DNA from: Trypanosoma brucei | Taxonomy: Eukaryota | DNA length: 64,000 nucleotides | Assembly (NCBI GenBank): GCA_000002445.1 | Contig: CM000207.1 | Location: forward strand, 608,001-672,000 | Reading direction: 5' to 3' | The notes under the pieces: generated by a model | Databases searched by the model: none | What the model saw: the letters and a program-made list of their open reading frames with translations, nothing else | What the model was told of the DNA's origin: nothing | Made by a program: the position numbers and the translations under genes | Part shown: positions 17,622 through 51,204 of the stretch, piece by piece | How positions within the stretch are numbered: position 1 is the first letter of the stretch | Layout of the letters: every line of letters begins with the position of its first letter

Positions 17622-18827
17622 TCACCGCTGGCTGGATGCAACAGTACACTTCACAAACGCTCTTATATTGCTTGTTGGCGAGTAACAGTGCTCCACAACG
17701 GGCACCATGCTGTTGCCCTCGTCATCTCGTTCTGTAGGCCACTTTGAACCAAATTTTAAGAGAAGCTTCAGAAACTCAACAACACTCCTCTTCCGTAAGC
17801 CAAGTACACACCACATTGCGGGAGTGCGTCCCGCATTGTCCTTGTCGTCCACGTGTTGATGGAGCCCGTAGTGCTGGAAGAAATCCAATAGCAGTTCCTT
17901 GCAGCCAAGGCGTGCCGCGTGATGGAGTGCAGTGGCTCCGTGGCTGTCAGGGCGCCACACAACCTTCTTGCCCAAGGTGTGAACAAGTAGCTGCAGGACG
18001 GCGGTGAATCCTGCTTCAGCGGCGGGGTAGAGGGCCTCAACAGCGACCTCATGTGATGCTAATCCGTGGAGTTGCATAAAATACCGAAGGGAATCCGCGT
18101 GTCCGTACAGGGCAGCACGCTGAACACAACGCACGGCGTTTTCCTCCGCAGGCCCCAACGCACAGAAAGGATGTGAAGTATCCAACCAATGCAAAACAGG
18201 AACTGAACCGTACACGAACGCCGTTTCGTACACACTGAGCGACTGCCCCAAAGGCTCAAGGTCCGGATGCGTGTGTTGTCCTAATATGGCGGCCGCTCCA
18301 AAGCGTCGCACCAGGGCAGCAATAAATTCAACATGACCCTTTTTTGCAGCAATATGCGAAAGGTAATTCCCTTCACCATCAGGCAGGGTGAAGGTGATTA
18401 TGTCCAACGGAACTTGTTCGAACGCACATGAGGGCCCTAGAGCATAATTCGTTACATGTACACCCCGAGGCAAAAGAATCCCACCTTCAGCCATACCAAG
18501 TAGAGGGATGCTTCCAAGTTCTGCTGCGAAGTGAGCCACCGTGTAGTTTTCCAACGCCCGGTAGCCTCCGGGAAGCTGTGCTTCACTAAGTTTTTTATTG
18601 AGCAACTGCACCTCATACAAGTGATAGCGTCCGGCGCACTGATTAGTCGCCGTTGCCGGTGTCACACCACCCTGCCCAGTAGTGGCGACTGCCTCAATGA
18701 GCAGAGAGCGCTCATACCATCGATGTAGCACGTCAGCAAAGCAAGAAGCTGAGTTATTTTGCAATGTCTCCTCGACGAAACTGCGGCACCGCTGTGGCTG
18801 GCAAAGTTGGACAATCGTACGTCTCAT
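17622..18827 (-). CDS. ankyrin-repeat protein (401 aa)
   Basis: True ATG at 18827..18825. There are several canonical ANK units, for example GATALHHAARLGCKELLLDFFQHYG, GNYLSHIAAKKGHVEFIAALVRRFG and GRTPAMWCVLG. Confidence 0.7.
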   Translation of the reverse strand: MRRTIVQLCQPQRCRSFVEETLQNNSASCFADVLHRWYERSLLIEAVATTGQGGVTPATATNQCAGRYHLYEVQLLNKKLSEAQLPGGYRALENYTVAHFAAELGSIPLLGMAEGGILLPRGVHVTNYALGPSCAFEQVPLDIITFTLPDGEGNYLSHIAAKKGHVEFIAALVRRFGAAAILGQHTHPDLEPLGQSLSVYETAFVYGSVPVLHWLDTSHPFCALGPAEENAVRCVQRAALYGHADSLRYFMQLHGLASHEVAVEALYPAAEAGFTAVLQLLVHTLGKKVVWRPDSHGATALHHAARLGCKELLLDFFQHYGLHQHVDDKDNAGRTPAMWCVLGLRKRSVVEFLKLLLKFGSKWPTERDDEGNSMVPVVEHCYSPTSNIRAFVKCTVASSQR

Positions 18828-19366: not shown

Positions 19367-22300
19367 CTACGAATGGGGTTGTGTGGTGATGGTAAGCGAA
19401 CTCACATACTGCTTCTCCCTGCTAAATATATCAGGTAGTGACTCCACCTCAGCACTGCAACTGCTACTGAATAGGCGGTGCAACAGAAGGTCAGCCGCAG
19501 TCGCTCTCCCTTCAGGTTGGAGGCAGAAACACATGCGTAAGAAATCACAGAGGACAGGGTTGCTTGTAAGTCCATCTACGTAGTAATCAACATCTGTCAT
19601 ATCTGCTAGCATGTGGGGAGTCTCCATAAATAAGGGTGGGCAGTCAAAGAGCTCAGCTGCTACACAACCAACTGACCAAATATCGCATGGGCTGCAGTGA
19701 TCCTCACCACGGTACACCTCAGGCGCCATGTACCGCAACGTGCCCTGTACGTCCTCGCTTCCAACCCCTTGGCGGGCCGTTCCAAAATCAGTGATTTTCA
19801 CAACGTCGCCCTTTATCAGAATATTCTGCGGCTTCACATCACGGTGTGCCACCCCACGCGCGTGCAAATAGGTCAGTGCTGTGAGCAGCTGCCGAAGGAC
19901 CTTGATAACCGTCAGGTCTGGTGGCTTCTGACTTCGGCCGTATATGATGTCGCCCAGTGAACAACAACAAAGCTCCATGAAGAGGTTCACACTGTTTTCT
20001 TTCCGCTCACAGTGAAAGTAGTGAACAATATTTGGGTGATTCAGGCTACACATTATCTTAATTTCATTAAGTAAGGCGTTAATAGACTCCTCTAAGTCCT
20101 CCGTAAAGTAAAACATCTTCACTGCCATCTTCCCCCCTGTCAAATCACTGGTGGCCTCATATACGGCACCGAAAGAACCTCGACCAAGCAGCACACCTTT
20201 CGTCCACGGTGAGTCTTGCCTCAGTGTCAGAATACGTTCTCGCTCCTCCTGCGCGGTAGCTGCATTCTTCCGCAGTGACACTGCAGTGCCGATCGCCATC
20301 AATACCTTACGGACTTCAGTACTCGATATGGGGGTGTTTATAACGTACTGAAACCCCTCTAACGCAAGGCGTACACCCGGTTCAGAGATGGGGACAACAA
20401 TAATATCGTAACTGAGGGAATGTACTAAATCCTGCACCGAGTTTAGCCATCCACGATCGCATACAATCACATCGATATCACTTGGTGATGACTGCAAGCG
20501 CTTCTCTAACTCGCATCGCTCCCGGACACTTGTCAGAGAAACAAACATCGTCCTGAGCAGGATCATAGAAATATTGTGTTGGTCCACAAGGTTTGTTATC
20601 AGCGTCAGCACATTCACAGTGCAATTCACGATGGCACGGGTTTGATCGATAACGTAGCGTTCATTCAGTGCGTCAGCTGGTCGGAAGGTTGCGTCATCAA
20701 TGTCCTCCAGTGCGGCTGTGATTTGGCAAGGAAATCGGAATACAACGGTGCCGTCGTCCTCGCGAATACTTCCACAGGTACTGCGCAAGTGGGGCAGCAA
20801 TTTCTCGCGTAACTCGCTTATCTGGGCTGTGCTTGGCGCTGCCTGGGCAACAGGAGTTGCGACAATCTGTAGAGCAAAGGTATTCCTGGAAGAGTTCAAA
20901 ATCTGCAACCTCAAATGGCATGGGACACGCAGACTATTCAGCAACGTGGCGACAGCTTCCGGGATACATGGATGGAGACAAAGCGTGCCGGGAAACAGCG
21001 AATCAACGCTCGTCTTGTGATCAAGTGGAGACAAGCGGAGCATCTGCCCCAGAAGCTGTTCTGAAGATGTCCACTCCCATTCTGCTAGCATCCCTCGCGC
21101 CAACTCCTCCACTTGCTTCCCGTACCCATATTCCAAGAATGACTGAAGAGGACCAATAACGGACAATCCTCTTGGCGTAACGGCTTTTCCTTCTAAGATC
21201 TCAGATAACGATAAGTTTACTTCCGACACCACGTAGTCGCGAATGTAGGTGCGGTACTCCCCCAAATTGTCCTTTGCATTAGCACAAATAAGAATCCTCC
21301 CAATTAAGGACCCCTCCTGGTTCAATATGGGGACAGCGACAGTGAACAATGTGACGGGAACTGTGGCAAAGGCACGCAGCTTCAGTTTGAGTACCTCACC
21401 TGAAAACACCTGGAGAGGTGCTAAGTCTCGCTCAATGTCCCCTGTTGGGGTTATAACCAAGTCGGAGAGCGGTTTTCCGACACATCCAGACTCGAGAAAC
21501 CCTGTCACAACCTCGGCGGCCATGTTCCACCGGGTTATACGGTATTTGTCATCGAAGCCAATCATCACGACCTGGGCGTCAACGTGCTTTCCTTCAATGT
21601 AACCCAATGCGTTGCCGTAGGGGATTGTGTAGTAGCCGTTCTTTGTATTATGTCCACGAGTAACCTGCGGAACCGCCGCCCCGGCCGACGGCCCCGTTGT
21701 ACTGAGGTCTCCTTCAGACGATGCGGAAGAAAGCAGCACGGTGTACATGCGCTCTTCAAGAATCCAGGTGTGGAGCACCTTCAGTGCCTTCGCCGATGTG
21801 ACAAAGAGGTAAAGGAATCCACAACTAACAACACTCACAAGGAGAAACGCAGTCAACCCTACCAGTAACCCCACGGTGGTTGAGGGTGACAGTGTCGGCA
21901 GCGTCACCAACACAACGAGGGTGAAGACAACGGAAGCCGCAAAAATCGCAATAACAAGTATAAATGCAACAGAGCTGTATGAAACTGCCTCCCTGAGTAG
22001 AACTGACATGAAAGGAAACTCAACATAAGCACATCGCATCCGCTGTGCGACCTCCTCTGCTAAACGCATCACCGGTACCCTCCAGTTCAATGATTGAGGG
22101 CCAACCACAACAATGTCACCCAAAAAAAGATGGCCCATTCGCTTAATCCGTTCATAAATTTCCCAGTCTATACTTCGTTTCTCATCGTTTGTACGGTAAG
22201 CGGAGGCAGGTACCCTGCACAGAACGCTGACTATAGTTTGAATACTGTGGTACGTAGCGAAGGCCTGCTTTGCCTCTTCACACTTGCCATCCGTGTACAC

Positions 22301-22438
22301 ACGCTCAAGTGAGGTAAAGAAATTTTCAACCATATCTGGTAGGGAAAGAATGCTCTCTTGCACATACTGTCTGTCGTCATCTGACGCTAAAATGGGGTGA
22401 GGCAACATCTTTGCTATTCGATCACATGTTGGTCCCAT
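19367..22438 (-). CDS. receptor-like Ser/Thr protein kinase with two TM helices, a PAS-like domain, a receiver-like domain and a STE/MAP3K-like kinase domain
   Basis: The track ORF starts with TTG. The first ATG is at 22438..22436 (MGPTCDRIAKM...). Two hydrophobic helices are present (VAFILVIAIFAASVVFTLVVLVTL and VGLLVGLTAFLLVSVVSCGFLYLFV). The PAS-like segment is ITRWNMAAEVVTGFLESGCVGKPLSDL. The receiver-like segment is IDVIVCDRGW...DIIVVPISEPG. The kinase has LGRGSFGAVY, AVK, HRDVKPQNILI, DFGTA and GTLRYMAPE. Confidence 0.8.
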   Translation of the reverse strand: MGPTCDRIAKMLPHPILASDDDRQYVQESILSLPDMVENFFTSLERVYTDGKCEEAKQAFATYHSIQTIVSVLCRVPASAYRTNDEKRSIDWEIYERIKRMGHLFLGDIVVVGPQSLNWRVPVMRLAEEVAQRMRCAYVEFPFMSVLLREAVSYSSVAFILVIAIFAASVVFTLVVLVTLPTLSPSTTVGLLVGLTAFLLVSVVSCGFLYLFVTSAKALKVLHTWILEERMYTVLLSSASSEGDLSTTGPSAGAAVPQVTRGHNTKNGYYTIPYGNALGYIEGKHVDAQVVMIGFDDKYRITRWNMAAEVVTGFLESGCVGKPLSDLVITPTGDIERDLAPLQVFSGEVLKLKLRAFATVPVTLFTVAVPILNQEGSLIGRILICANAKDNLGEYRTYIRDYVVSEVNLSLSEILEGKAVTPRGLSVIGPLQSFLEYGYGKQVEELARGMLAEWEWTSSEQLLGQMLRLSPLDHKTSVDSLFPGTLCLHPCIPEAVATLLNSLRVPCHLRLQILNSSRNTFALQIVATPVAQAAPSTAQISELREKLLPHLRSTCGSIREDDGTVVFRFPCQITAALEDIDDATFRPADALNERYVIDQTRAIVNCTVNVLTLITNLVDQHNISMILLRTMFVSLTSVRERCELEKRLQSSPSDIDVIVCDRGWLNSVQDLVHSLSYDIIVVPISEPGVRLALEGFQYVINTPISSTEVRKVLMAIGTAVSLRKNAATAQEERERILTLRQDSPWTKGVLLGRGSFGAVYEATSDLTGGKMAVKMFYFTEDLEESINALLNEIKIMCSLNHPNIVHYFHCERKENSVNLFMELCCCSLGDIIYGRSQKPPDLTVIKVLRQLLTALTYLHARGVAHRDVKPQNILIKGDVVKITDFGTARQGVGSEDVQGTLRYMAPEVYRGEDHCSPCDIWSVGCVAAELFDCPPLFMETPHMLADMTDVDYYVDGLTSNPVLCDFLRMCFCLQPEGRATAADLLLHRLFSSSCSAEVESLPDIFSREKQYVSSLTITTQPHS

Positions 22439-22944: not shown

Positions 22945-24645
22945 CTATTGCTTTTCTGTTCCCCCCCTGCTTTTGCAACTAGACTTCCGTGAAGAAGATC
23001 TCCGCTTCCTACGGCTATGGCTACGGCTACGGCTACGACTCTTTCTCTTTCTTCTCGGCTTGCCCTTTCGGCGTTTCTTCCTCGAAGGAGAACCCAGGCG
23101 CGTGCCTCTCGAACAGAGCGTAGGTCGCCGGCGGCCCATATGAGGGAACGTAGATGAAAGCTCGGGTGGTATAGGAGGACGCAGGAAGCCCATTGTCCCA
23201 AAGGAGAACCGACGTAAGTCCAGTGATGTAGGATTTACAATAGGAGGCAGGTTAGTACTGCCATTACCAAGCACATCAGCGCTTATCAGCCCATATTCTT
23301 CGCGGCGATCCACGTAGTGGTGGGTAAGTCTGTCGGAGCACGAACCGATATTGTATGTCTTATCATCGTAGCGAACAGGCAAGGTGTCTGTGTATTTGGG
23401 TACGACGGCACGCAGTGCGTCCTCGGTTACTTCATCATCATCAGAACTGTCTCCTTCTGCGACGAAAAGGTTAACCGCAGACCGGCCAACACTATATTGG
23501 CGTCTTCCCTCTCGTTTCACCCGTGGTATATTGCGAAGCAGATCATCTGGTGCAAGGCTGTCGGTAAATGGAGTTGGACTCTTCTCGCGCAGGTGATCAG
23601 CATCGTCTATGTAGTCGTCAAAAGAATCCATGCTCTCACTATCATGGTCAGCGGCTGAATGGCTGAGAAAGCGAAGGAAGTCAAACGTGTAGTTGGCAGG
23701 ATCCACAAGCCCTCGGGATTGGAGAGCCTTTACGACACCCTTGACGTCCTGCTGCACCAGAGTTTCTCCAAGTCGAACGAGCTCCCAAGCACTCTCAGAA
23801 CAGTTTTTCCTTTTGCGTACCATCAGCACAATGCATGAATTATGCCCCACAGTCGTCACTTGCACGGGAACAATTGCTAAGGGAAGTCTTTCATTTGCCT
23901 TTTTTACCGCATAATACACTCCTGTCGCTTCGCAGAGGGGCACCTCTTTCGTAAATAAAGTGGAGCACAAAGAAAAACCGGCGCACATCGACACTTTCTT
24001 CAAGTTTGCAACGACAGTATCACCAGCCACCACCTTCGGACCACCAGCAGGTTCGAGGAAGTTGTCTGAAACTTTACAAGCAGTGTCAACAGAAACCACA
24101 TCGTGCGCCCTATGCAGGAGGCCTTTATCATTCGTCATCCTTCGCCCGACGCCAACATAATCAATCTGTCTCCCATGTTCTCTAAAAAGACAAGCTGTTG
24201 TGTCGAAAAATAATAATGGTTTACCGTCCTCAGGCAAGGGACGATAAAGGGTTATCTCAAGCTCGGTGACGTGACTGCTGATGAGTGAAGATTCGCCTTC
24301 TCCAAGAACTGGAACTGGAGATATCGCCCCTTCGGGGGAGTTAGTTCCTGACTCTGACGAAGTCATCCCCGCTTTGCTCACTTTCCTGACCGAGCCGCGT
24401 CGCTTTCCACGCCTCGACCCGGTCCGAGAGCGACGAGACGAACGACGAGACGAGCGGCGTCGCCTACCCTTTGATTTACTTCTCCGGCCACCTCTACGTT
24501 TTGTTTTAGATTTACTTTTTGATCTCCTCCGCCTCTGGCGCGGGGAACCCGCTCTCGAACCTTTTCTCGTTGGTGGCCCAGTGGGAATCTTTGTCCCACT
24601 CAGCGTCCCGGCTAAGCTCCGATCCTCGTCACTACCAAGATCCAT
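22945..24645 (-). CDS. Arg/Ser-rich (RS-domain) protein with RS/RK tracts at both termini
   Basis: True ATG at 24645..24643. N-terminal RRRRSKSKSKTKRRGGRRSKSKGRRRRSSRRSSRRSRTGSRRGKRR and C-terminal RKRRKGKPRRKRKSRSRSRSHSRRKRRSSSRKS flank a unique central globular region of about 350 aa. This resembles SR-related splicing/RNA-processing factors. Confidence 0.55.
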   Translation of the reverse strand: MDLGSDEDRSLAGTLSGTKIPTGPPTRKGSRAGSPRQRRRRSKSKSKTKRRGGRRSKSKGRRRRSSRRSSRRSRTGSRRGKRRGSVRKVSKAGMTSSESGTNSPEGAISPVPVLGEGESSLISSHVTELEITLYRPLPEDGKPLLFFDTTACLFREHGRQIDYVGVGRRMTNDKGLLHRAHDVVSVDTACKVSDNFLEPAGGPKVVAGDTVVANLKKVSMCAGFSLCSTLFTKEVPLCEATGVYYAVKKANERLPLAIVPVQVTTVGHNSCIVLMVRKRKNCSESAWELVRLGETLVQQDVKGVVKALQSRGLVDPANYTFDFLRFLSHSAADHDSESMDSFDDYIDDADHLREKSPTPFTDSLAPDDLLRNIPRVKREGRRQYSVGRSAVNLFVAEGDSSDDDEVTEDALRAVVPKYTDTLPVRYDDKTYNIGSCSDRLTHHYVDRREEYGLISADVLGNGSTNLPPIVNPTSLDLRRFSFGTMGFLRPPIPPELSSTFPHMGRRRPTLCSRGTRLGSPSRKKRRKGKPRRKRKSRSRSRSHSRRKRRSSSRKSSCKSRGGTEKQ

Positions 24646-25250
24646 TCCCTAAAAAATCACTAAACAAAGAGGGGGTCACGACGTATATGTGCACCCAGAG
24701 AAAGTAACACAGTCACAACCCCAGTAAAATATCGTAGTGTGAGCAATACAACTGGTTTTTAAAAAAAACGAAGCCTCGAGGGCTCAGCTCGTCCGTCCCT
24801 ACAAAAACAACATGCGCTAAGACAAGAGAACTTTTGCTTAGCCACGGCGAACAAGAAGTTGCTGAAGTTCACATAACACAACCGGAAAAAGCAAAAGTGA
24901 AAAAAAGTGGTAACAAAAAAACGGAAAAAATAAATACAAAAAATGGGTAAACTTTCCATGAACCGTAAGCACGAACTACACATAATTGAGCATACAAAAT
25001 AAACATATGCATTATAAACACCTGGAACAAAATAAACAGCAGTGCAAGACACCGGCTAAGCACCATGACCTTGTGATCATATGCAGCAAGGGTGAACTTC
25101 GGGTACTTTCCTCCCCCCCCAAAAAAAAAGCCCCTTAACCCATAATCATGTCAACTTACACAACAAAGAAAAAAATCATCAAATATTAAAAACCGAACGA
25201 AGCAAAATTAAACGTAAAAACAAGTAAGCGATTTTTAAAAAAAGGGTGCA

Positions 25251-25253
<3 letters not shown>

Positions 25254-25282
<29 letters not shown>
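25254..25282. repeat. (TA)n microsatellite
   Basis: aaaatatatatatatatatatatatatatatac, read directly from the sequence. Confidence 0.9.
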
Positions 25283-25286
<4 letters not shown>

Positions 25287-26722
25287 CATACAGTGATAGC
25301 TGATCGTGAGAAGATGCACGGAGGTTTGATAACGACTCATTTTAAAACAATGGCGTACATGGGGGAAATATTTAAGTTCGTTTGTTTTTGTTTTTTTTTT
25401 TTAAACAGGCACATAACCGCCTTTCGTGGAGAATTTTCGGTGTCCACGAGTAGCCATGCCAATAAACCAAGTAAATTTCTTAACTACAGCTTGCCGAGAG
25501 CGAGCGTCTTATCGCTGGAGTCCACAATCGTAAAAATATTCATCACACGTCATACATAAATGGGAAAGAAAAAAACATTAAAATGTAACGTGGCGATGGG
25601 AAAACAAGAATTTTATCCACACAACCTTATGGCTCCACTATTTTCCCCCTCCCCAGCCTCGCGCACAAAATCCTACCAAATTGTCGCTGGTTACATTCTT
25701 CACCCGAAATGAAATGAGCATGTCCTGCATCCAATGAGAGAGTGAGTGAATGGAAGAAGGTCTGTTTTAAAAAGGGGGGGAGGAAGTCGCTCTTCAACAA
25801 GAAAACATGCTCGCCTTCTGCAATCACCATTTAACAAACATGGTTGAAGCAAACGAACCATCTTCCAAAACACTCGTTTTCTAGCTAATAACTACGTATA
25901 TGTATATTATAACTAAATTGACAAATATTCGTATTTGTATATAAACAACGACAACAACACCAATAATAATAATGGTGATAGCAATTGAAAATGTGCACCT
26001 CATTCCCTTAATTGAACACTTCCGTTGAAGCAGTAAATTAAAGGGAAACACAAAGCATTATAATGATCCCACGTTGAGTCCGAGTGGTGCGATTATGTGT
26101 CATTAAAGCGAATATTCCGTGGAAAGAACGGGTCTCAGCAACAGCATCACCTCGTCAGATCAGTATCCACTACCACAGTTCATTATATCATTTAATTTTT
26201 GCAGCATATCAGGTACCGACACTAGTTCTGGCATGTCAAAAACTGCAATAAAAGGGAAATGGCTAGCACAACTGCTCTCAGCCGGAGTTACCCTCAGTCA
26301 CAACAACCCATATAACTAAGCATTTTTATCCTACACTACCAAAGATAGTAAAATAAACAACAATGCTTGACAATGTTTTTACCCAATAAAAAAAAAAGGT
26401 CAGCTGGTGACAAAAGGATAGAAAAGTTAGAGTAAAACAGATACACCGAGAAGAAACATAGCGCACATTCCAAACGCGACAATTATGTTTCGCCCACCCA
26501 GAGAAAACGTATGTATTGTTCCACAACCCTCCGCTACGGTAAGGGGTAAAAGATATATATGTATGTGTCAACAAAACAGGCTAACAAAACGACGGAATAC
26601 AGTCCTTTACATCAACTCAACCCATTGGGTGTTATACTAGTATTGGCTATGGTCCTACTTTAAAACAATCAAAAAAATAAAAAATGGAAGTAATAACCCC
26701 ATCCGTGAAGATACTAAAGCTA

Positions 26723-27313
26723 CTAGTTACTGATTTTGTTCCCATCCTTGAAAATCTCAGGTCGTTCAATGACAGCAGGTGTCTGGAACACATGATCTGG
26801 TATCTCCGCTCCACGATAAAGCGATTCGAGAAGCGAGGCGGCACCTCGGGGAGTGGCCTCCCACTTCATGGTCTCCAGAAGGGACTTTGCCAAAAAATCC
26901 ACGAGCTCAATGTGTGGTATAACCACCTTTGCATAATCGTCATCAGGGTCAGCAAATGCCTCGAGGTGGTGTCCATCCATCTCAACAGTAAGTTGTCCAC
27001 CTTTGTCATCAAGGATTGGGTAAGCTGTGAGGCTGTAACACTTCAATAGTCGATGTGGGTCACCCAAGTGAGGTGGAAGAAACACCCGAATGTATGTCTT
27101 GTTTTCTTTGGCAACTTCACCTAATCGACGCAGAACATCGGCATCACGAGGATCCATCGTCGAGGCGTACTGACTTCTGATGCGGTCATTTACTTCGGGC
27201 TTGCGAAGCATGCAGCTGAAAATTGTGTCCAACGCCGCATTATCCCAACCTTTCCCAAAGAAGTTACGACTCAAAGGCACAGTTGCCAAAAATGGTGTGA
27301 CAAAGCGCTTCAT
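26723..27313 (-). CDS. conserved hypothetical protein (196 aa), possibly organellar
   Basis: True ATG at 27313..27311. The N-terminus MKRFVTPFLATVPLSRNFF is basic and hydroxylated like a mitochondrial presequence. It is the first gene of the minus-strand cluster next to the strand-switch region. No family recognised. Confidence 0.5.
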   Translation of the reverse strand: MKRFVTPFLATVPLSRNFFGKGWDNAALDTIFSCMLRKPEVNDRIRSQYASTMDPRDADVLRRLGEVAKENKTYIRVFLPPHLGDPHRLLKCYSLTAYPILDDKGGQLTVEMDGHHLEAFADPDDDYAKVVIPHIELVDFLAKSLLETMKWEATPRGAASLLESLYRGAEIPDHVFQTPAVIERPEIFKDGNKISN

Positions 27314-28293
27314 CTAAAACAATAGATCGTTCTATTATCTCTTCAACTTATCTGCTCGTTTGAATTGGGCGATCAAAAAAATACAGAAGATGTTTAGAAC
27401 GGTAAAAATAGGGGTTTACAAAAAAAAATCTCATCGGGAACAGGAAAATGATTTTAAACCAAAGAAAACTCTCGCCTTAACCCTCAATATTTTTATTAGT
27501 CGTTAAAAGGTCAAACGGCATTTTCGGTACCTAAATATTCCATGTAAGTAGATAGACAAGAGCCACCGTGCGATACTGACACCGCCTCAAACCATAAATA
27601 AAGCGGCGAGGGAAAACAACCCGACAATAGATGATGGGACCGACAGAAGACATATTTCGGGAACATATTGTTCCATCCAATTGAGGGGGAACAAGCAACG
27701 AAAGCGTTTTGATTAAATCCTATCTCTGCTTAAGTGTTACCTTACATTGACAACAAGTTCTTCTTTGTATCAACGACCACAGCACCAATAGTGAAACAGG
27801 AAGCGCAGATGCTTTCTATTATGTTCAAATATGTATATATATACATATATATACATATATACATGTAGTTATTGACAGTGTTTTCCAATAGTGTTGATAA
27901 GTGTGCTCTCGACTTTGAAACAATAATTTCACTCAACCGAAAACTACGAGAAATCAACGTAGTGTCGTATCACTAACAAAAAACTTAAGGTGAAAAAGTG
28001 CAAGAATAGTGCTAACGCACAGGAAAATCTGAGTGGAGCATTAGAATAATTCCACCATCAACAAACTGAGCATTACTACCCCCAAGACGTTCTTGGTTGA
28101 AATTTACACTCCGAAAAAAATCGTCAATTATGCATCAACTCTTTCCTCACAAAGTACGGTACCTTCAAGGCAACGCGACGTTGAAAGTTAATAAAGCTCA
28201 TGGAACCCATACATCAACCACATGTGCATAAAGCAAAAACATCTTTTTCCTTCAAAACAAGAAATTAGGCCACAAAACTTAAAGATCATTCAA

Positions 28294-28304
28294 CCCCCCC
28301 CCCC
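28294..28304 (-). repeat. G11 homopolymer on the minus strand (C11 on plus) at the minus-cluster edge of the strand-switch region
   Basis: caaccccccccccctcag, followed by G7 at 28328-28334. Read directly. Confidence 0.85.
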
Positions 28305-31300
28305 TCAGTCAGGAGCTCAACACCACAGGGGGGGTACTCATCTCCCACATCATCGATGTTACGATTACCCTCTAAATAAATCCACATAATGTGGCAAAAA
28401 AAACCCTTCTACATAGACTAGAAACGTAAGCAGGTAACGGGAAACAATACTAAGAACATCCTTTGTAAGGAAAAGGAAAACGCAAACATCCCATAGACAA
28501 GAGCCAGGAATCACTGCGTATTTATTAGCATCCCGTGGGCACCCACAAACTGTACGCCGCAAGCAGTAAATTCCACATAATTAAGGTCAAAGTAATGTCA
28601 CTGTAGCGTCAGCTGCACCTTGCTTACCCTTTTAGGTGCCGCCAATAAGCATACCACTTGGACTACCAGACGATGAAAAGTTAGGTGCCCGCCGGCAAAC
28701 CAATACCAAAAATTAATAACAGTAATGATAACTTTCATAAGGGTGGGACCATGTTGTAGGTATGGACGGCATGCCCCACATGGCAACAAGTGAATATACA
28801 CCAACGCCAAATACCAAATGCACAACCTCAAGTTATCATCAAAGAAAAATATTAATATGGGCGGGAAATGACCAGCCTGACATGGGTTGCACTGGCCAGA
28901 GCGCCTCACCAACCAGTCAAAAGGCATATGGCGGGGGCAAGACACTTTCTATCTGTTACTACCCGAATATGCTCACAAAAGCAATGACATCACACAGAGC
29001 CACACTCTCTCTCTCTCGCCCTCCTTGTCTCGGTTGAAGGAGAAGCGTAGCGGGCCGTACCACCTTAGCCGTTCCACGAATCACCTAAGCCAATCCATCA
29101 CAGCATTCAACTCCACACAACATGTAACTCCGGTTCAGATTATACGTACGCAACCCCACCCCAACCCGCTCATCACATAAATTTAAAATATTGCGGTGCA
29201 TCCTCGCCTCGGTTTCTCGAACAAAAACAAGCAACATCCGCAAAAACTAAACAAAGTAGAGGGACCAAATATGAAAAGGCATAGAATGCGTCGACCCTCA
29301 GCAGCCGTCTCGAAACTGTTGGTGCCGCACCACACACCACAACAACTGCAGCAACAACAACCGCATTCGCTACCCATGGGATAAGAGGGGGGAAATGAGC
29401 AGGTGGGAGCGTGTTCAGGAAATTCTCCACGGCGAGGTAGCCCCTGAGTAGCGACAACCCGAAGCAGAAAGACTTGGGAAGGGGTGGTCGAGCCACAGCA
29501 GTGGCAACCAATCGACGCGCACCGCCAGCATACGCCAGACGGGGAAAGGACTCCCACGCCACCCCGCATTACAAGCAGCGCCGCCACCACAGCGCCGCAG
29601 AAAATAAGGTAAAGTCAGGGGGGAAAACACTCCAACCAGCAACGCGGTACAAATTCCCATACCTTTACCCATGCAGGAGTCGCCAACGTGCCTCAACCCC
29701 CAATACCCCTCGTCAGGAATAGATTGAAATGGAAGAGTATGAAAATAATCTGTCGCGTGACGTCCAACAGTAGCGTTACGGTTCAAGAATGGACACCAGA
29801 ACCCCCTACCACGCAGTTGTGCCAAACACCCAACAAAAAACACAGTCCGGACGAAGTCACCTCGCACCGGCCATATGGAGGTGAGTCCCAGGCCTGCCCC
29901 GCCCAGCACTAAGCACAATGCTGCCCATCTCTCTTATACAGAACGAACAAGGTCAAAAAATGTGCAAACTGCGAAAAAAGCCATCTTCTCTACACCGAAA
30001 GGGCAAATTTCAACCGGTGGAAGAAAAACGACCCCATCCACCCCTCACAAGAGCACCGGCTGCCGGCTGTGACTCAAAGAGAAAAGGAATGCCCATCCTC
30101 TTTCTTGAACACACGGCGATAGTACTTACGTTGCGGCGTTTCGCCGCAAAAAACTTATCCGCACGTCACAGCACACAGCGCAGTTTCCCCGTCCCACATT
30201 CACATCCGGCCGCTTCCCTGCGCCCCAAAAAGGTTATCGCGGGACGACCGGACGACACCTACCCCTTGGTGTGCGCTAAGCCCGTCCCCTCAGTTGACGA
30301 CAGAGATTCTGCACTTTATTGGCGCGCGTTTGGTATCTGCAACGACAAAAAACGTGGTGGGGAACCCCCACCGCAATATTCATCAAAAAAAAAAAAAGCT
30401 GGCGTTGTACGCGACACAACTTGCTAATGGAACTACCCTGTTGCAAACCGAGTGCCACGGGCCACTAAGGACAATGAACGCCACACAACGTTATTTACTG
30501 TTTTGGTGTGTGCCGCAACTCCGAAGAGCCACCAATTTCACTGCAAATATCCTTAAGAGAATCATATCCGTGGAAACACGATAACTTGGGGAAGCCGAAA
30601 CTCATCACACAGGAGAAACTTGGAAATACTAAGGACTAGAGAAATACCCACAGCCATACCGACGCACAGCTGCAACAGTCATTCATGATGGACCGCCCGC
30701 CGCAGCCCGGTGGGTAGAACAATATCGGGGACCCTTGTTCCGTGACAATGGGGTTGGCCAAAATGGAGAATGAGACGGATGCTTCCGCAAGTAATATTGA
30801 GCGGAAACGCCATGCAGCACAGAGGCGAACGTCTTTATATGGCGGTGCTCGACTCCAACGGTGTCAAGAGAAACGTTACAAAATGAGTATATCCAATAAA
30901 AACGGCCTGAAACGTCAGCGGCCGAGTTTAGTACAGTGCTTCCAGGCAGCGACCGCCGGATTTGGAAACAGAACAACGAGGCAACACCATTCCACGCACC
31001 AGTTAGTGATGGCCTGCGCCACGATGCCATCAAAACGCTACAAACACGTACTGCGGGTATACCGAAGGGTAAAAACACTACTGGAATAAGATAATGGAAA
31101 AGGGTTAGTTCCTGTTGAAAACGAACAGCATAAATTCGTGCTAAGACTCTTGAGAACCCCCAGTAGTTCCTAATTCCCAACCCTTCTTGACGACAAACTT
31201 GGTGTGAGAATCACATCGCACCGAGGGAGAAGATGGGCAATTACTCCATAACTCCGAATATATCTGAAGGGTTAAATCCTGTCCCATCTCCTTCCCCGCC

Positions 31301-33599
31301 CGACACTGACCATTTCAAAGGTGATAGAAAGAGAAAACTGTGAGAACATATGGCGACAGGTGAAACGGTGAAAGTCCAAGCGGGGGTTTAGCCACGCCAT
31401 CCTCTTTATTGTTTGTTCCAAATCACCTCAAACAGCGAGCTAAATGAGGGGTGCGCAACAAATTCGCAAACATGGTGCATCAAGCTCACCTACTCTCTAC
31501 ACCGCCTTCTTTCCAACAGATCAAGTGGCAGCAGCTCAATTGGACGAATCTCCCCGACTCCAACAAGTATAGTTTAACAAAGGTTAAACAAAAAGCACAA
31601 TCCCAAAACTCTGCTGTTACTAGCCGCAACTGCTTTCTTTCCCAACCTACGTCCCCTACTGCGGAACTAAATCACCAAAATAGTTTCCTCCCTAACACCC
31701 AAGCGATAAGGAGCAAGGCTGCTAATGAATATGCGCCACGGAATGAGCGCCGCACCTACGAATAGGACACGTAAACACATTGGTAGACTCAAAAAAAAAA
31801 AAAGAGGCATATATAGTCCAGAAAATCCTTTCGAGCTACTGCGACCCTGACAAGCTCCGACAACCACGTCAAAGCAAAACTATATTCCTCTCGTCACCTA
31901 TTGACAATCCGAGGTTTGTAGCGTTCTGTTCACATCAGGAAAAAGAATATGGTCCTGCACTATTCAAAACGAAAAAGAGAAGGCTACTACCGACAAGGCT
32001 CCTCAGATTGAGAACTCCTTTCTCGACAGTGTGGGATTCAATAGCCCGAGCACTGCGTGCACCCCGACTCGGAGCGGCAGGGAAACGATCATGCAGGGAA
32101 TCGAGCACCGCCACATTTTCCCTCATTTTTTTGGAAGAATGCGGTGGGGTCACGACGGCAAGTAACCAACATGATCACAGGCGTGACGGGTGGAGAGAGC
32201 GGGGAAGATGCGGTTGAGTTGGCTCAGCTGATCATCGTTAGGGGTGTAGTTTGCAAGAGGGGAGTGGAATGTTACCTGAAATGGGAAGCCGTCGATTAAA
32301 CATTCAGTGAAGTCATAAGAAAAGCCGGACCTTCTGGACTACCCTATGCATAATGAGTTGGATGCTGCCAAGTGTTAGTGTAACAAAGTGGGGAAGACTT
32401 ACCGCAAAAGGAAAGCTTGGTGTGGATCGTTTTCGGGGTTGCAAGCACGGCCCTATCCCTCGAGTGGGCTGAGGGAAGATGCGCCGTGCGAAGAGAAAAA
32501 TAGAGGTGTCCGTTGCCATCCACCACCAAACCTGAACAGAAGGTTCTGCTGAATTGGATATGCCGAGCGGTGGAGAAACTTTCATATTTGATAAGGCAGA
32601 AAGACGGCTGAGTTACGCAGAAGGATCGGTAAGCTGCCACGTGACTTCCGAGGGGGGAGGGCTGCAATGAAGATTGTGCTTGAAAGGCCTCTAAGAGAAA
32701 CGGCATACAAGGCAAAGGGTGGGGTCCGGGTTAGAGACGTTCAACAAATTCGAACCGTCCCTCTTTTCTTTAAAGGCGGAACCAACACGTATAAAAGGTT
32801 ACGTCCTTCGCCCTATATGGAGAAGGGATCGGTGCAGCTCGTTAGGAATATGCCCCTATAAGTGCATTATGTTTTCTATTGCTCTAATTTTTATTGAAAC
32901 TAATTACCCGGCTACGGGGGCGGGTCTACAACCGGAACACCCTCCGTGCGGCACTAATACCGTGATATAGTTGTCGATTCAAAAGGCATCAGCGGTGAAT
33001 ACTTCAATTTTAACGCAGCAGTTTGAGGGCCGTCACGCACGGTATCAACGCTTTCTCTCATACCCCTTCTGCTAGGAAAGATATGGAAGCGGCGCGGAGA
33101 CAAGAGAAATTTCCCGCTTGGTTTTTCTTCTGGCGCAACGAAACGGTTCGGATGATATCTAGGATGGCTGAGCAACTGCATCAACCGAATGAGAGACGCG
33201 GTTGGTGCAGAATAGAGCAAATAATGAGGAGTCGCCGCCCCCTACACACACACACACATAATGTGAAGTTTAGTCGGAACAGCTCATACCTCGCGTGGTG
33301 GATAAACGTTTGGCGCCCAGTGATACGCCCGGGCAGTGATGCGGTATCGTTCCAGCGATTAACGTGGGTTGCTCATGCGACGGGGAAAAAAATCTGTAGA
33401 AAGGGTTGGACAAGGAACGAGTTGGAAAAACGCCTCAGAACGCGATGGGAATGTCGGGGATTGTGCATATCCTTTGTATGCGCGTGACTGTCCAGGACGC
33501 CCAAACACCCGAGAGTGCGCGCCATCAAACACAGAGGGGCGCTGCTATCCGAAACGAGCGACACCCAATGCGTGCACGTGTGGTTGTGTGGGAGAGCGC

Positions 33600-33615
33600 G
33601 GGGGGGGGGGGGGGG
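33600..33615 (+). repeat. G16 homopolymer
   Basis: gcgcgggggggggggggggggagtgg, read directly. It lies about 770 bp upstream of the first plus-strand gene. Confidence 0.85.
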
Positions 33616-33795
33616 AGTGGTGGGCTCGATGGCTGAAAGATACGGCTAATACGATGGTGCCCGATGTCTGCGGTGTCTGAAAACGCGTTTTATAGCAGTC
33701 CAACCAGGGGTGTGTATGGCGCACAAGGATTGAGGAGGAGAGTCAGCAGTAGGAACGCAATCGCAGGTAATGGCAGGAGGGGGTGCGTGTGTGTT

Positions 33796-33808
33796 GGGGG
33801 GGGGGGGG
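33796..33808 (+). repeat. G13 homopolymer
   Basis: gtgttgggggggggggggcagtg, read directly. Confidence 0.85.
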
Positions 33809-34260
33809 CAGTGCGGTGGTGATGTATTGCCGAGGTCGGTGCATTTTATGCCGGTGCTGGCAGTTGTTAGTGAATAAGAACGCTGGGACATAGTTCTGTG
33901 GGCCTTATTCGGTAGGGTACAGTCTTTTTTTCTTGTTGTCATGCCTATGTGTGGGGAAGTGGGGATGCGGGTCAGCACCGTGGTTTATGTGACTCTTGTT
34001 GCTGTGCCCTCGCTCGTTGATGCATTTCACCATCAGCTTTACAGATGTGTGCGCTTCTTACGTTAATGGATGCTGACGTCGGCATTTTTTTTTTTGATGC
34101 TATTGATGGGTTTGGTAAAGTGTTACCTGGAGATTGTAGAAACTTGCGGGCGGTCAGGTGTAATTTTTTTAAATCGGTCCCTTCCATGTGAAATGACTAA
34201 GTGTTGTGTTCACTACTGGCAAGGTATGATTTCCTGGACTCAACTTTAACGTTTAGAATG

Positions 34261-34370: not shown

Positions 34371-35522
34371 ATGACGGCAGTGGTGAATGAGTTCCTTAAG
34401 CGCGGTGTACGAGCGTTAGCAGCTCGCCAGGATTCCGTTCTTGTGATGGGTAACGAAGGAGGTGACATGGACACCGTGATTGGCTCTATATTTCTGGCGA
34501 TGTACCTGGAAAAGCGTGACGTATTTGGTGTTGGTAGTTACGTTCCTGTACTAAACTTCGAAAAGGATGACTTACCACTGCGACAAGATGTGGTTAAGTT
34601 ACTGTCACGACACAACGTTTCTACAGACAGTATTTACTCAGTCAAGCAAAGTGGGAATGGTGTGGATTTCCTGGACCTACATCAAATGAAGCTTCCCATC
34701 GTTTTGTATGATCACAACAAGCTAAGTCCTGAGCAGGTTTATTTGGGAGAAAGGATCGTGGGTGTGGTCGACCATCACGAAGATGAGCAACTATACGTGG
34801 ATCAGACCAAATGCCTCCGAAGGATTTGCAAGACGGGTTCGGCTTGCACCCTTGTTGCAGAACTTTTCAACGAGGCGGGGTTGGAGGTTCCGTGCCCTGA
34901 GCTCCTCTTAGCCCCAATTGTAGTAGATACTGTAAACTTTGAACCGTCGCAAAAGAGGGTAACTGAACGAGACATTTTGGCCTCCAGGCTGCTGGTTGGG
35001 CGGGACGATTGCGGCGACTACCTGACGGGCATGTTTAAAGAACTAATGGCGTGGAAAAATGATATCCACTGCCTCACTGTTCCTCAGCACCTACGGCGGG
35101 ACTATAAAAACTTTGAATTTCCCTTTATTAGTGCTGAAAACAAGATATTGCGAGTTGGAATAAGCAGTATTTCGTGTCGTTCTGACGAATTACTATCCGT
35201 CCATGGTGTGAGTAGTGTGTCATCAAATTGCATTGAATTCATCAAACAGAGGTCAATCGACATGCTTCTCTTGACCTTCGCTGGTGAAAGAACTCCAGGG
35301 AGTTACTGTCGTCAGTTAGGTGTTGTTGCGAAGGATGAGGGACTCGCGGCTCTGCAAGCCTATTGTAAGAAATCACCCAGCGGGCTCGACTTTACTCTTC
35401 TGGAGGATGTAACAGTTAATGAGTGGGCCTTTTCAATTTACGAGCTGAGCGACCCTTCCGTGTCTCGGAAAAAGTTGGTTCCATCGCTGACTAGTTTTTT
35501 GTCAGTGTGGAACAATTTGTAA
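34371..35522 (+). CDS. DHH-family phosphoesterase (exopolyphosphatase/prune-like; DHH plus DHHA2)
   Basis: True ATG. Motifs present are GNEGGDMDT (motif I DxD), LYDHN (motif II), VVDHHEDEQ (DHH motif III) and a C-terminal DHHA2-like region. 383 aa. Confidence 0.75.
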   Translation: MTAVVNEFLKRGVRALAARQDSVLVMGNEGGDMDTVIGSIFLAMYLEKRDVFGVGSYVPVLNFEKDDLPLRQDVVKLLSRHNVSTDSIYSVKQSGNGVDFLDLHQMKLPIVLYDHNKLSPEQVYLGERIVGVVDHHEDEQLYVDQTKCLRRICKTGSACTLVAELFNEAGLEVPCPELLLAPIVVDTVNFEPSQKRVTERDILASRLLVGRDDCGDYLTGMFKELMAWKNDIHCLTVPQHLRRDYKNFEFPFISAENKILRVGISSISCRSDELLSVHGVSSVSSNCIEFIKQRSIDMLLLTFAGERTPGSYCRQLGVVAKDEGLAALQAYCKKSPSGLDFTLLEDVTVNEWAFSIYELSDPSVSRKKLVPSLTSFLSVWNNL

Positions 35523-37943: not shown

Positions 37944-38450
37944 ATGTCGTACTACGACAAGTCTGACAAAATAGGCTATGACGACACTGACAAAGAGCTT
38001 AACGAAGAGCTGGAGGAGATGCTCGCTCGAACACCCCCTCATATTCAACGACATTTGCAACATCGTATTCACGATGGCATACTGCAGCGTATGAAAGAGG
38101 ATACCGCGCGAAGGTGCTGGGAGTTCATCAAAAAGTATGAAACATGTGTCAATAGCGTCAAGCCATATGACTTAACGGACTGCCGTCCCCATAGGGACGC
38201 CCTCAATGATTGTGCCCACGAGGTGAACCGCGAACAAATCTATCAAAAGTATCGTATGATGTATCTCCGAGGTGAACTTCTCAGATTACATGAGAGCCGC
38301 CTTGGTCAAAAAATGGAGACCATGAAGGTCCGTGCACCCGATTCGATTAGGGGATGGAAGCCGGACTATGCACCGAAGTATGCGGAAATGATGTCAGATA
38401 TTGGACTAAATTTGGGGCCGGAGGCGGCGGACGAGCGAAAGCTCAGCTAA
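37944..38450 (+). CDS. twin Cx9C (CHCH-domain) protein, likely mitochondrial intermembrane-space
   Basis: The first ATG is at 37944 (MSYYDKSDK...); the track start at 37935 is GTG. Two Cx9C motifs are present: CWEFIKKYETC and CRPHRDALNDC. Confidence 0.6.
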   Translation: MSYYDKSDKIGYDDTDKELNEELEEMLARTPPHIQRHLQHRIHDGILQRMKEDTARRCWEFIKKYETCVNSVKPYDLTDCRPHRDALNDCAHEVNREQIYQKYRMMYLRGELLRLHESRLGQKMETMKVRAPDSIRGWKPDYAPKYAEMMSDIGLNLGPEAADERKLS

Positions 38451-38614
38451 CAGGTGAAAAAGTGCGCTTCGCTTTCAAAGAAAAAACTTTTTTCCGGAGG
38501 AGTGGAGGGGTGACCGGCCTGCTGTCGGTTTCTATTTCTGTAACCAGGATTCCTTTTCTTTTTTTAAAAAAAAACACGACCTTCCACCATTGTGTTTGTA
38601 TTATAGAAGACTAC

Positions 38615-50487: not shown

Positions 50488-51204
50488 TTAGAGGTGCTTT
50501 AGAAACTGTAGACGGGGAAAGTGAGATAGGGAAAAGATGGGAGTGTTGTTATGCGGAGAATTTCTTTGACAGCCTTCGTCCTGACCCGGCTTGCCAAGCT
50601 TTTCATTTTCTCATCTAATGTGCATGTCTTGGAAATCGCTCTCGGTTGGCGGCCCGTCCTTTCTAAACTTCTTCTTTTCACGTGCTTCAACCCCCCCTTT
50701 CTGTCCCTTCCTGGCTTCATGCTCACACAGGGTCGACGGCCCTCTTGTACATAAAGCGTCACGGGTGGAACTAATGTGTTTCTTTCTTTGAGCAGGTTTG
50801 TCAACTGTTGCGTCCCCTCTGGGAGGTGGAAACTGCAGAAAGCCATCAGAAGGAGAAGGGACAATGGACGAGAGTGCGGGGGGGGGGGAGAAATAAAAGT
50901 GTGTATGCGCAATGAGGCGGATAGAAGGACTGAAAAGGGATCCATTGGGGAAGGGGGCATCGTTTACTGTTTCCACGGAGTGATGTAAACCTCACAAGAT
51001 ACTTTGGGTCTTGTGTGTGGGAGCGTATGTATAAATAACTCGATTGGTGGCACATTCAGCAGGTCCACTACTATTAATCGCAGGGTGATTTATCCTGTTC
51101 ACACAACGCGCCCCTTACTCTCGTTCCCTTGCCTACCAACCCCATCTTTTCGTTTTTTTGCGTGTGCACCGCACGCGCGGAAGTCCTTCTTTTGCATTAC
51201 CGGG

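What the first reader, a model, noticed from the sequence alone, without database searches (positions are those of the whole stretch)
19367..22438. Receptor-like kinase with TM helices, a PAS-like domain, a receiver-like domain and a STE-type Ser/Thr kinase
The domain order is that of a bacterial sensor (TM sensor, PAS, REC-like) but with a eukaryotic MAP3K-like kinase as output. The kinase motifs are intact: VAVK, HRDVKPQN, DFG, APE. The REC-like segment contains a DVIVCD acidic pocket. Trypanosomatids lack receptor tyrosine kinases, so a TM-PAS-kinase is one of the few candidate transmembrane signalling kinases.
Basis: partly seen in the sequence, partly recalled or inferred. Interest (0 to 1): 0.5.

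Follow-up and report, generated by a model that had tools for sequence, protein, structure and literature searches.

The report
Membrane kinase with fossil histidine-kinase cassette

Summary
The minus-strand ORF at 19367-22438 is real. It is 100% identical to a T. brucei protein kinase (Q38FL3), which is Tb927.9.3120, named DAK by Jensen et al. 2021 (PMC8519429).

- Two strong TM helices, conserved in 15 orthologues.
- A PAS domain: Pfam 21.5 bits here, matched in 15 of 15 orthologues.
- An intact STE-like kinase.

The unit is therefore a whole hybrid histidine-kinase cassette fused to a eukaryotic kinase. An N-terminal four-helix bundle was also missed.

"Receptor-like" is not supported. The TM pair is a hairpin with an 8-residue loop and no ectodomain, both ends are predicted cytosolic, and published tagging puts the protein in the ER.

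The cassette looks catalytically dead:
- The H-box His is Ser.
- The N, G1, F and G2 ATP-binding motifs are absent.
- The receiver keeps only the Asp and the Pro; the acidic pair and the Lys are gone.

It most likely acts as a dimerising, allosteric scaffold for the kinase. Architecture already known; moderate to low interest.

The parts
19367..22438 (-). Whole ORF as reported, stop codon included (1023 aa from the first ATG). It is Tb927.9.3120 / DAK.
   Evidence: 100% identity to XP_011776352 (T. b. gambiense); TREU927 XP_803617/Q38FL3 sits in the same >=90%-identity cluster. link it to Tb09.160.1780 = Tb927.9.3120.
22406..22408 (-). Probable true start codon (M11 of the reported ORF), giving a 1013-aa protein.
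   Evidence: Nearly all orthologue sequences begin, or have an internal Met, at MLPHPILA. Candidate splice-acceptor AGs at 22415/14 and 22410/09 lie downstream of the first ATG. Published domain numbering is offset by 10.
22034..22381 (-). N-terminal four-helix bundle (aa 20-135), predicted cytosolic.
21899..21970 (-). TM helix 1 (aa 157-180).
   Evidence: Kyte-Doolittle peak of 3.14, conserved in 15 orthologues. Helical in the AF2 model.
21875..21898 (-). 8-residue Pro-rich loop (PTLSPSTT), the only extracytoplasmic or luminal segment.
   Evidence: the loop is 8 aa in all orthologues. Summed K+R is 8, against 37 and 30 in the two flanks.
21797..21874 (-). TM helix 2 (aa 189-214). It continues as a helix into the cytosol.
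21278..21631 (-). PAS domain (aa 270-387).
   Evidence: PF00989 scores 21.5 bits here and is matched in 15 of 15 orthologues. The profile hits PAS of 5iu1_A at E 7e-7 and phytochrome B PAS. The model has a beta-alpha-beta PAS topology, but at low pLDDT.
21083..21265 (-). DHp-like helical hairpin (aa 392-452). S405 (nt 21224-21226) occupies the H-box histidine position.
20720..21082 (-). CA-like (Bergerat-fold) pseudo-ATPase domain (aa 453-573). It lacks the N, G1, F and G2 boxes.
20324..20623 (-). Receiver-like (beta-alpha)5 domain (aa 606-705). D661 (nt 20456-20458) aligns with CheY D57.
20216..20323 (-). Long conserved helix linking REC alpha5 to the kinase N-lobe (aa 706-741, '...EERERILTLRQ').
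   Evidence: Model helix spans cassette residues 452-487. Near-invariant columns E732-W745.
19469..20200 (-). Eukaryotic protein kinase domain (aa 747-990), STE-like, with all catalytic motifs intact.
   Evidence: Pkinase E 1e-53. Motifs. Invariant columns. Best PDB hits are TAO3 at 5.9e-33 and MAP3K2 at 2.6e-29.

Best explanation
The gene is Tb927.9.3120 (DAK), a kinetoplastid-wide kinase anchored in an endomembrane.

**Domain order**
- a cytosolic four-helix bundle
- a TM hairpin
- PAS
- a DHp-like hairpin
- a CA-like domain
- a receiver-like domain
- a conserved linker helix
- an active STE11-type Ser/Thr kinase

**Shown here.** The histidine-kinase cassette is a fossil. In T. brucei it has no phospho-acceptor His and no ATP-binding motifs. 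The receiver lacks the Mg-binding acidic pair and the conserved Lys.

**Inferred mechanism.** The cassette no longer relays phosphate. It serves instead as a dimerisation and allosteric module:
- The DHp-like hairpin would hold two chains together at the membrane.
- The cytosolic PAS domain, and possibly the four-helix bundle or the TM hairpin, would take the input.
- The conformational change would pass through the CA-like and REC-like domains and the rigid linker helix.
- That would set the activity of the kinase domain, probably by trans-autophosphorylation.
- The kinase would then act as the top tier of a MAPK-type cascade.
For: **Identity**
- 100% match to T. b. gambiense XP_011776352; the TREU927 protein (Q38FL3) is a member of the same >=90%-identity cluster.
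- The only catalytic two-TMD STE11 kinase on chromosome 9 with two T. cruzi alleles is Tb09.160.1780.
- The DAK paper cites the same B. saltans orthologue, A0A0S4IKM7 = P0015, and kinase-domain numbering offset by 10.

**Folds**
- The cassette model has the secondary-structure order PAS / two-helix hairpin / alpha-beta sandwich / (beta-alpha)5 / long helix.

**Dead catalytic sites**
- The H-box His is Ser405. This follows from alignment to a genuine PAS-HisKA-HATPase_c-REC protein and from hhalign.
- In the CA-like domain, the N-box 'NA' is deleted.
- G1 (DxGxG) is replaced, and 21 residues including the F box are deleted.
- G2 (GLGLGL) is replaced by ISELRE.
- None of 32 family members has the Gly motifs.
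- In the receiver, D12 is I, D13 is T and K109 is T. D57 is D in 26 of 32 sequences and P110 is P in 32 of 32.

**Active kinase.** All catalytic motifs are present and the catalytic residues are invariant.

**Coupling.** The REC-kinase linker is the most conserved non-kinase stretch. Every distant relative keeps cassette plus kinase together.

**Topology.**

**Published data.** ER localisation, and the paper also notes that the His is mutated while the Asp is kept.
Against: - The cassette model has only moderate confidence: mean pLDDT 62.6, with PAS and the inter-domain loops low.
- Sequence support for DHp-CA is weak. hhalign gives 11% probability in global mode and hmmsearch finds no PDB hit. 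The motif-by-motif alignment of the CA domain could therefore be shifted.
- D661 is conserved in 26 of 32 sequences (invariant in the 21 closest), which hints at some retained function that a pure scaffold model does not explain.
- The Bodo clade keeps a His at the H-box column, and a Thr at the T87 position.
- Nothing here tests dimerisation, PAS ligand binding or kinase regulation. No knock-down phenotype is known in T. brucei, and the L. mexicana orthologue is dispensable.
- The published localisations disagree: ER in T. brucei, lysosome and flagellum in L. mexicana. Both come from tagged, possibly over-expressed protein.
Confidence: 0.7

Rival explanations
1. DAK is a working hybrid histidine kinase. 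The CA domain phosphorylates the DHp, phosphate passes to D661 of the receiver, and phospho-REC switches the Ser/Thr kinase on, as in the yeast Sln1-Ssk1-Ssk2 logic condensed into one chain.
For: - The domain order is complete and collinear.
- D661 aligns with CheY D57 and is kept in 26 of 32 relatives.
- Five relatives keep a His at the H-box column.
Against: - In T. brucei and the other Trypanosoma sequences in the alignment the H-box residue is Ser.
- No family member has G1 or G2 glycines or the N-box Asn-Ala, so ATP binding by the CA-like domain is implausible.
- The receiver lacks the D12/D13 pair and K109, which are needed for Mg-dependent phosphotransfer.
- The two relatives with 'HE' at the H box have Ala at the D57 position.
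- No Pfam HisKA, HATPase_c or Response_reg signal appears in any of 23 relatives scanned.
Confidence: 0.05
2. DAK is a true receptor kinase at the cell surface that binds an extracellular ligand.
For: - Two confident TM helices.
- Trypanosomatids have few TM kinases.
- The L. mexicana orthologue shows some flagellar signal.
Against: - The only segment on the far side of the membrane is an 8-residue loop.
- Both large domains flank the hairpin on the K/R-rich, cytosolic side.
- Tagged protein colocalises with BiP in the ER in bloodstream T. brucei.
Confidence: 0.05
3. The sensed input is a property of the membrane itself (lipid packing, thickness or ER stress), read by the TM hairpin and juxtamembrane helices. 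This would be like DesK or the Ire1/PERK lipid-stress mode, with PAS playing only a structural role.
For: - Hairpin topology with no ectodomain.
- TM2 continues as one long helix into the cytosol.
- ER localisation, and the DesK/LytS analogy raised by the authors.
- Conserved Pro and Gly residues at the hairpin turn and within TM2.
Against: - PAS is the best conserved non-kinase block, with many invariant residues (W304, N305, AAE, TGF). That argues for a specific function.
- About 50 poorly conserved residues separate TM2 from PAS, so rigid coupling is doubtful.
- There is no experimental link to lipid or ER stress.
Confidence: 0.15
4. The REC, DHp and CA resemblance is a chance or over-interpreted similarity, and the region between PAS and kinase is a lineage-specific linker.
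For: - No Pfam or PDB sequence hit for aa 392-745.
- hhalign probability for DHp-CA is only 11%.
Against: - REC hhalign E 5e-6, with the Asp and the cis-Pro in register.
- The most distant relatives carry a near-canonical E...D...S/A...K-P set of receiver residues.
- Independent HHpred probabilities above 95% in the literature.
Confidence: 0.03

Closest known systems
Tb927.9.3120 / DAK ('dual ancestor kinase'), Jensen et al. 2021, PLoS One (PMC8519429)
   Same: It is this gene. The paper reports two TMDs, PAS, HHpred DHp-CA-REC, a C-terminal ePK at aa 737-980, the His mutated and the Asp kept, ER localisation, and conservation from trypanosomatids to Bodo saltans.
   Different: Nothing differs in kind. 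Added here:
- Residue-level evidence that the CA-like domain has lost its N, G1, F and G2 boxes.
- Evidence that the receiver has lost D12/D13 and K109.
- A confident N-terminal four-helix-bundle model.
- The 8-residue loop and N-in/C-in topology.
- A wider metagenomic family, some members of which keep the H-box His.
Hybrid histidine kinases (PAS-HisKA-HATPase_c-REC), e.g. yeast Sln1, Pseudomonas GacS, and P0181 found here
   Different: The H-box His, ATP-binding motifs, acidic pair and Lys are all missing. No Pfam signatures are detected. The output is a fused eukaryotic kinase. The TM pair encloses no sensor domain.
Plant ethylene receptor ETR1 with CTR1, subfamily-2 ethylene receptors, and the phytochrome C-terminal PAS-PAS-HKRD module
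   Same: - A membrane (ER) protein with a histidine-kinase-like and receiver module controlling a MAP3K-type kinase.
- Degenerate HK domains used as scaffolds. This point comes from my own knowledge of the plant literature.
- The ETR1 CA domain and phytochrome appear among the structural hits.
- PAS is closest in sequence to the moss CTR1-like PAS 5iu1_A and to phytochrome B PAS.
   Different: In plants the HK-like receptor and the MAP3K are separate proteins, the kinase is Raf-like (TKL) rather than STE, and the sensor is a TM copper/ethylene site or a bilin. No orthology is shown here.
Pseudo-receiver domains (plant PRRs, cyanobacterial CikA and KaiA) and atypical, phosphorylation-independent response regulators
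   Same: The receiver fold is retained with an incomplete catalytic quintet and used as an interaction or allosteric module. This is established knowledge.
   Different: DAK keeps the D57-equivalent Asp and sits inside a full fossil HK cassette fused to a kinase.
Other multi-TMD STE11 kinases of T. brucei (RDK1 Tb927.11.14070, Tb927.3.5650, Tb927.9.12400, FHK, MEKK1)
   Same: Trypanosomatid kinases with a C-terminal ePK domain, several TM helices, and bacterial-type signalling modules upstream. Several localise to the ER.
   Different: Their accessory modules are cyclase-like, FHA or sensor domains. Only DAK has the PAS-DHp-CA-REC cassette.

Membership tests
Eukaryotic protein kinase (Pfam PF00069) | Full-length domain match, plus the Gly loop, VAIK Lys, alphaC Glu, HRD, DFG and APE motifs. 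| tested here: met
   E 1e-53, 182.8 bits against a cut-off of 31.7. GRGSFGAV, MAVK (K774), E792, HRDVKPQN, DFG and APE are present, and the catalytic residues are invariant.
STE group / STE11 (MAP3K) family | The kinase domain groups with STE11/MEKK kinases rather than other groups. | tested here: inconclusive
   The best solved matches are TAO3 (STE20) at 5.9e-33 and MAP3K2 (STE11) at 2.6e-29, but PLK3 at 2.9e-29 and CDKL1 at 1.6e-28 are nearly as good. Parsons et al. 2005 classify it as STE/STE11. No phylogeny was run here.
PAS domain (PF00989 clan) | Profile match above threshold, and the five-stranded beta-sheet PAS fold. | tested here: met
   21.5 bits against a gathering score of 22.6 in T. 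brucei, just below threshold. Matched at E<=0.01 in 15 of 15 orthologues, best E 1.5e-7. The profile hits solved PAS 5iu1_A at E 7e-7. The fold is modelled only at low pLDDT.
Histidine kinase DHp (HisKA) | A helical hairpin carrying the phospho-acceptor His of the H box. | tested here: not met
   The hairpin is present. The H-box column is Ser405 in T. brucei, and His in only 5 of 32 relatives. There is no PF00512 hit.
Histidine kinase CA domain (HATPase_c, Bergerat fold) | An alpha/beta sandwich fold, plus the N box (Asn), G1 (DxGxG), F box and G2 (GxGxG) for ATP-Mg binding. | tested here: not met
Response-regulator receiver (PF00072) | A (beta-alpha)5 fold. | tested here: met
Response-regulator receiver (PF00072) | The catalytic quintet D12, D13, D57, T/S87 and K109 (CheY numbering). 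| tested here: not met
   I614, T615, D661, S685 and T702. Only D57 (and P110) are conserved across the family. The CheY reference sequence was verified against 1a0o_A. No PF00072 hit even at E<=10.
Receptor protein kinase | An extracytoplasmic ligand-binding domain, a membrane span, a cytosolic kinase, and plasma-membrane location. | tested here: not met
   An 8-residue loop is the only non-cytosolic segment, and the charge bias indicates N-in/C-in. ER localisation is reported. Localisation itself cannot be tested with these tools.

The most novel reading that the evidence does not exclude
DAK would be a fully fossilised one-chain two-component system. An ancestral PAS-HK-REC-ePK fusion lost His, ATP binding and receiver chemistry in steps: the His survives in the Bodo clade and two environmental lineages, and K109 survives only in the most distant relatives. 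The pseudo-phosphorelay scaffold, together with a previously undescribed cytosolic four-helix bundle, would now act as an allosteric, PAS-gated dimer switch for an ER-resident MAP3K. The conserved D661 would serve as a non-phosphorylated latch on the linker helix. This would be a eukaryotic example of a His-Asp relay rewired into pure conformational signalling. It would also give trypanosomatids an intracellular metabolite or redox sensor at the head of a MAPK cascade.
Probability: 0.4. Interest if true: 0.5.

Novelty: already known. Interest (0 to 1): 0.3.

Why it matters
Trypanosomatids lack receptor tyrosine kinases, heterotrimeric G proteins and canonical two-component systems. How they sense their hosts is therefore an open problem. 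DAK is one of only ten TM kinases in T. brucei, and the only one carrying a whole hybrid histidine-kinase cassette. It is a natural fusion of the two great phospho-signalling systems.

The analysis here points experiments away from phosphotransfer and towards other questions: PAS ligands, dimerisation, and coupling through the linker helix.

The protein and its architecture are already published. No phenotype is known in T. brucei, and the L. mexicana orthologue is dispensable. The finding is therefore correct and of some biological interest, but it is not a discovery.

Tried and rejected
- **Pfam and NCBIfam on the single protein.** Neither gave a REC, HisKA or HATPase_c signal, even at E<=10.
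- **hmmsearch of the cassette profile against all PDB sequences.** Only the PAS part matched.
- **Two word-indexed homologue searches.** They returned only 16 orthologues and no Leishmania sequence. The Leishmania orthologue was confirmed indirectly. The published L. mexicana tagging primer encodes MLAHPILASE, the family N-terminus.
- **Cluster look-ups for taxonomy of distant relatives and PAS donors.** These gave no organism names apart from Paulinella micropora for one multi-PAS protein. The published claim of a bacterial origin for the cassette could be neither supported nor refuted.
- **Foldseek against AFDB.** The library was unavailable.
- **A working phosphorelay, a surface receptor, and a chance resemblance.** I considered and rejected all three; see the rival explanations.
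Full report
**1. What is there**

The interval 19367-22438 holds one long minus-strand ORF. From its first ATG it encodes 1023 aa. The protein is 100% identical to T. brucei gambiense XP_011776352, and the TREU927 protein XP_803617 (UniProt Q38FL3, on a 3.06-Mb chromosome record) belongs to the same >=90%-identity cluster.

Parsons et al. 2005 list two STE/STE11 kinases with two TM domains on chromosome 9. Only Tb09.160.1780 has catalytic T. cruzi orthologues on two alleles, as ours does.

Jensen et al. 2021 (PMC8519429) describe Tb927.9.3120 with a kinase domain at aa 737-980 and the Bodo saltans orthologue A0A0S4IKM7. Our Pfam kinase match is 747-990, an offset of 10, and our hit P0015 is that same Bodo protein. 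The gene is therefore Tb927.9.3120, which those authors named DAK, 'dual ancestor kinase'.

The offset has a simple explanation. Nearly all orthologue sequences begin, or have an internal Met, at 'MLPHPILA', which is M11 here. The first AG dinucleotides after the upstream polypyrimidine tract lie between the two ATGs. The real start is probably 22408, giving 1013 aa.

**2.

*Kinase.* Pkinase matches at E 1e-53. GRGSFGAV, MAVK, HRDVKPQN, DFG and APE are present, and the catalytic residues are invariant across 15 orthologues. Against solved structures the best matches are STE kinases: TAO3 at 5.9e-33 and MAP3K2 at 2.6e-29. PLK3 and CDKL1 are almost as close. 'STE-type' is therefore reasonable but rests mainly on the published classification.

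*TM helices.* There are two Kyte-Doolittle peaks, 3.14 at aa 157-180 and 2.44 at aa 189-214. Both are present in every orthologue and are modelled as helices at pLDDT 81-91 by 10-residue block.

*PAS.* PF00989 scores 21.5 bits in T. brucei, one bit under the gathering score. It matches in 15 of 15 orthologues, best E 1.5e-7. A family profile hits the solved PAS domain of a moss CTR1-like MAP3K (5iu1_A, E 7e-7) and then the phytochrome B PAS repeats.

**3.

**4. Topology**

The two TM helices are joined by an 8-residue Pro-rich loop in every orthologue. Summed over 15 sequences, K+R counts are 37 in the 16 residues before TM1, 8 in the loop and 30 in the 18 residues after TM2. By the positive-inside rule, both the N-terminal bundle and the whole cassette and kinase are cytosolic, and nothing substantial faces the other side.

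Published tagging places the T. brucei protein in the ER. The L. mexicana orthologue LmxM.26.1730 was placed in lysosome and flagellum. Its knockout is viable, and I did not analyse its bar-seq fitness trajectory. 'Receptor-like' in the sense of an extracellular ligand receptor is not supported.

**5. Is the cassette functional?**

I enlarged the family to 32 sequences using an exhaustive profile search. That search gave 845 hits at E<=1e-3. Most matched only the PAS part. About 20 matched the whole cassette, and every distant one tested also carries a C-terminal Pkinase and no Pfam HisKA, HATPase_c or Response_reg.

*DHp.* A local hmmsearch aligns the DAK segment 'Y-l-v-S-E-v-n' to 'T-V-T-H-E-L-R-S-P-L' of P0181. 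P0181 is a genuine 9xPAS-HisKA-HATPase_c-REC protein. hhalign against 40 real HKs gives the same register. The phospho-acceptor position is Ser405 in T. brucei. Across the family it is Ser in 11 sequences, His in 5 and other residues in 16. The His carriers are the Bodo clade ('HR') and two metagenomic relatives ('HE').

*CA-like domain.*
- The N-box Asn-Ala is deleted.
- G1 (DxGxG) is replaced, and 21 residues including the F box are missing.
- G2 'GLGLGL' aligns with 'ISELRE'.
- No family member has the glycine motifs.
- The terminal strand 'G-x-v-x-l-x-FPCQ' still mirrors the HK 'GS-x-F-x-f-x-lP'.

This alignment has low statistical support (hhalign 11% in global mode). The absence of any Gly-rich motif in the region does not depend on register.

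*Receiver.* D12 is I614, D13 is T615, T87 is S685 (variable across the family) and K109 is T702. Lys is present only in the three most distant relatives. D57 is D661 (26 of 32) and P110 is P703 (32 of 32).

No family member combines His, ATP motifs and a complete receiver. The two sequences with 'HE' at the H box have Ala at the Asp position. I conclude that His-Asp phosphotransfer is very unlikely, and that the cassette is a fossil kept for structural or allosteric reasons.

**6. Proposed mechanism (inferred, not shown)**

- The DHp-like hairpin dimerises two membrane-anchored chains.
- The cytosolic PAS domain receives the input. Possible alternatives or additions are the four-helix bundle or the hairpin itself. 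PAS is the best conserved non-kinase block.
- The change propagates through the CA-like and REC-like domains and the near-invariant helix 'EERERILTLRQDSPW', which runs straight from REC alpha5 into the kinase N-lobe.
- This sets the activity of an otherwise intact STE11-type kinase.

The close conservation of D661 is not explained by this model and is the main loose end.

**7. Comparison with what is known, and verdict**

This is DAK itself, so the architecture is already known. In function it resembles:
- hybrid histidine kinases, though it fails their catalytic membership tests;
- plant ETR1/CTR1 and the phytochrome HKRD modules, where degenerate HK domains act as scaffolds for Ser/Thr kinase signalling (my own knowledge of that literature);
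- pseudo-receiver domains.

The published suggestion of a bacterial origin could not be tested. The closest PAS matches include both eukaryotic and unassigned metagenomic proteins.

Novelty: already known. Interest: about 0.3.

Noticed in passing
window 22406-22438 (-): The first ATG (22438) is probably not used. Nearly all orthologue sequences begin, or have an internal Met, at the second ATG (22408). The first AGs after the polypyrimidine tract (22415/14 and 22410/09) lie between the two ATGs. GenBank models of 1023 aa would then be 10 residues too long.
   Followed up: partly
P0013-P0015 (Bodo clade) and P0120, P0123 (metagenomic relatives); alignment column of S405: Five of 32 family members keep a His at the H-box position ('HR' or 'HE'), and the Bodo clade also keeps Thr at the T87 position. 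None has ATP-binding motifs, and the two 'HE' sequences have Ala in place of the receiver Asp. This suggests stepwise, lineage-specific decay of an ancestral phosphorelay.
   Followed up: partly
P0013-P0015, between REC beta4 and beta5 (alignment columns ~850-1030 of A1): The Bodo-clade proteins carry a 110-190-residue low-complexity insert inside the receiver-like domain. In P0015 it contains an internal duplication ('NDAMPHPRVTEFDEDEMNEDDFSPVA...' occurs twice).
   Followed up: no
window 21278-21631 (-), PAS domain: The closest solved relative by sequence is the PAS domain of a moss CTR1-like (ANR) MAP3K, 5iu1_A, at E 7e-7. Plant phytochrome B PAS repeats come next, rather than a bacterial sensor PAS. 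This is relevant to the published 'bacterial incursion' idea but is not resolved here.
   Followed up: partly
window 45105-48281 (+): A 1058-aa ORF combines a PPPDE/Peptidase_C97 domain, a PUB domain and a glycoside hydrolase family 85 (ENGase) domain in one chain. This looks like a deglycosylation and ubiquitin-like-protease fusion.
   Followed up: no
window 22945-24645 (-): The upstream neighbour is a 566-aa ORF with no Pfam match. Both termini are extremely Arg/Ser/Lys-rich, for example 'RRRRSKSKSKTKRRGGRRSKSKGRRRRSSRRSSRRSR'.
   Followed up: no
window ~24000-34000: There are no ORFs of 200 aa or more between 24645 and 34371. GC drops to 0.41-0.43 at 24-28 kb, and GC skew changes sign near 32 kb. 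Coding switches from the minus to the plus strand. This looks like a divergent strand-switch region between two polycistronic units.
   Followed up: no
window 17622-18827 (-), 34371-35522 (+), 38354-39835 (+), 51004-53595 (+): Other neighbours by Pfam are an ankyrin-repeat protein immediately downstream of DAK, a DHH/DHHA2 phosphoesterase, a pseudouridine synthase, and a DUF1771-Smr protein. None has an evident functional link to the kinase.
   Followed up: no
LmxM.26.1730 (L. mexicana orthologue; literature): Localisation differs between species and tags. It is ER for C-terminally tagged, over-expressed T. brucei DAK, and lysosome plus flagellum for N-terminally tagged L. mexicana protein. 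The word-indexed homologue searches returned no Leishmania sequence at all.
   Followed up: partly
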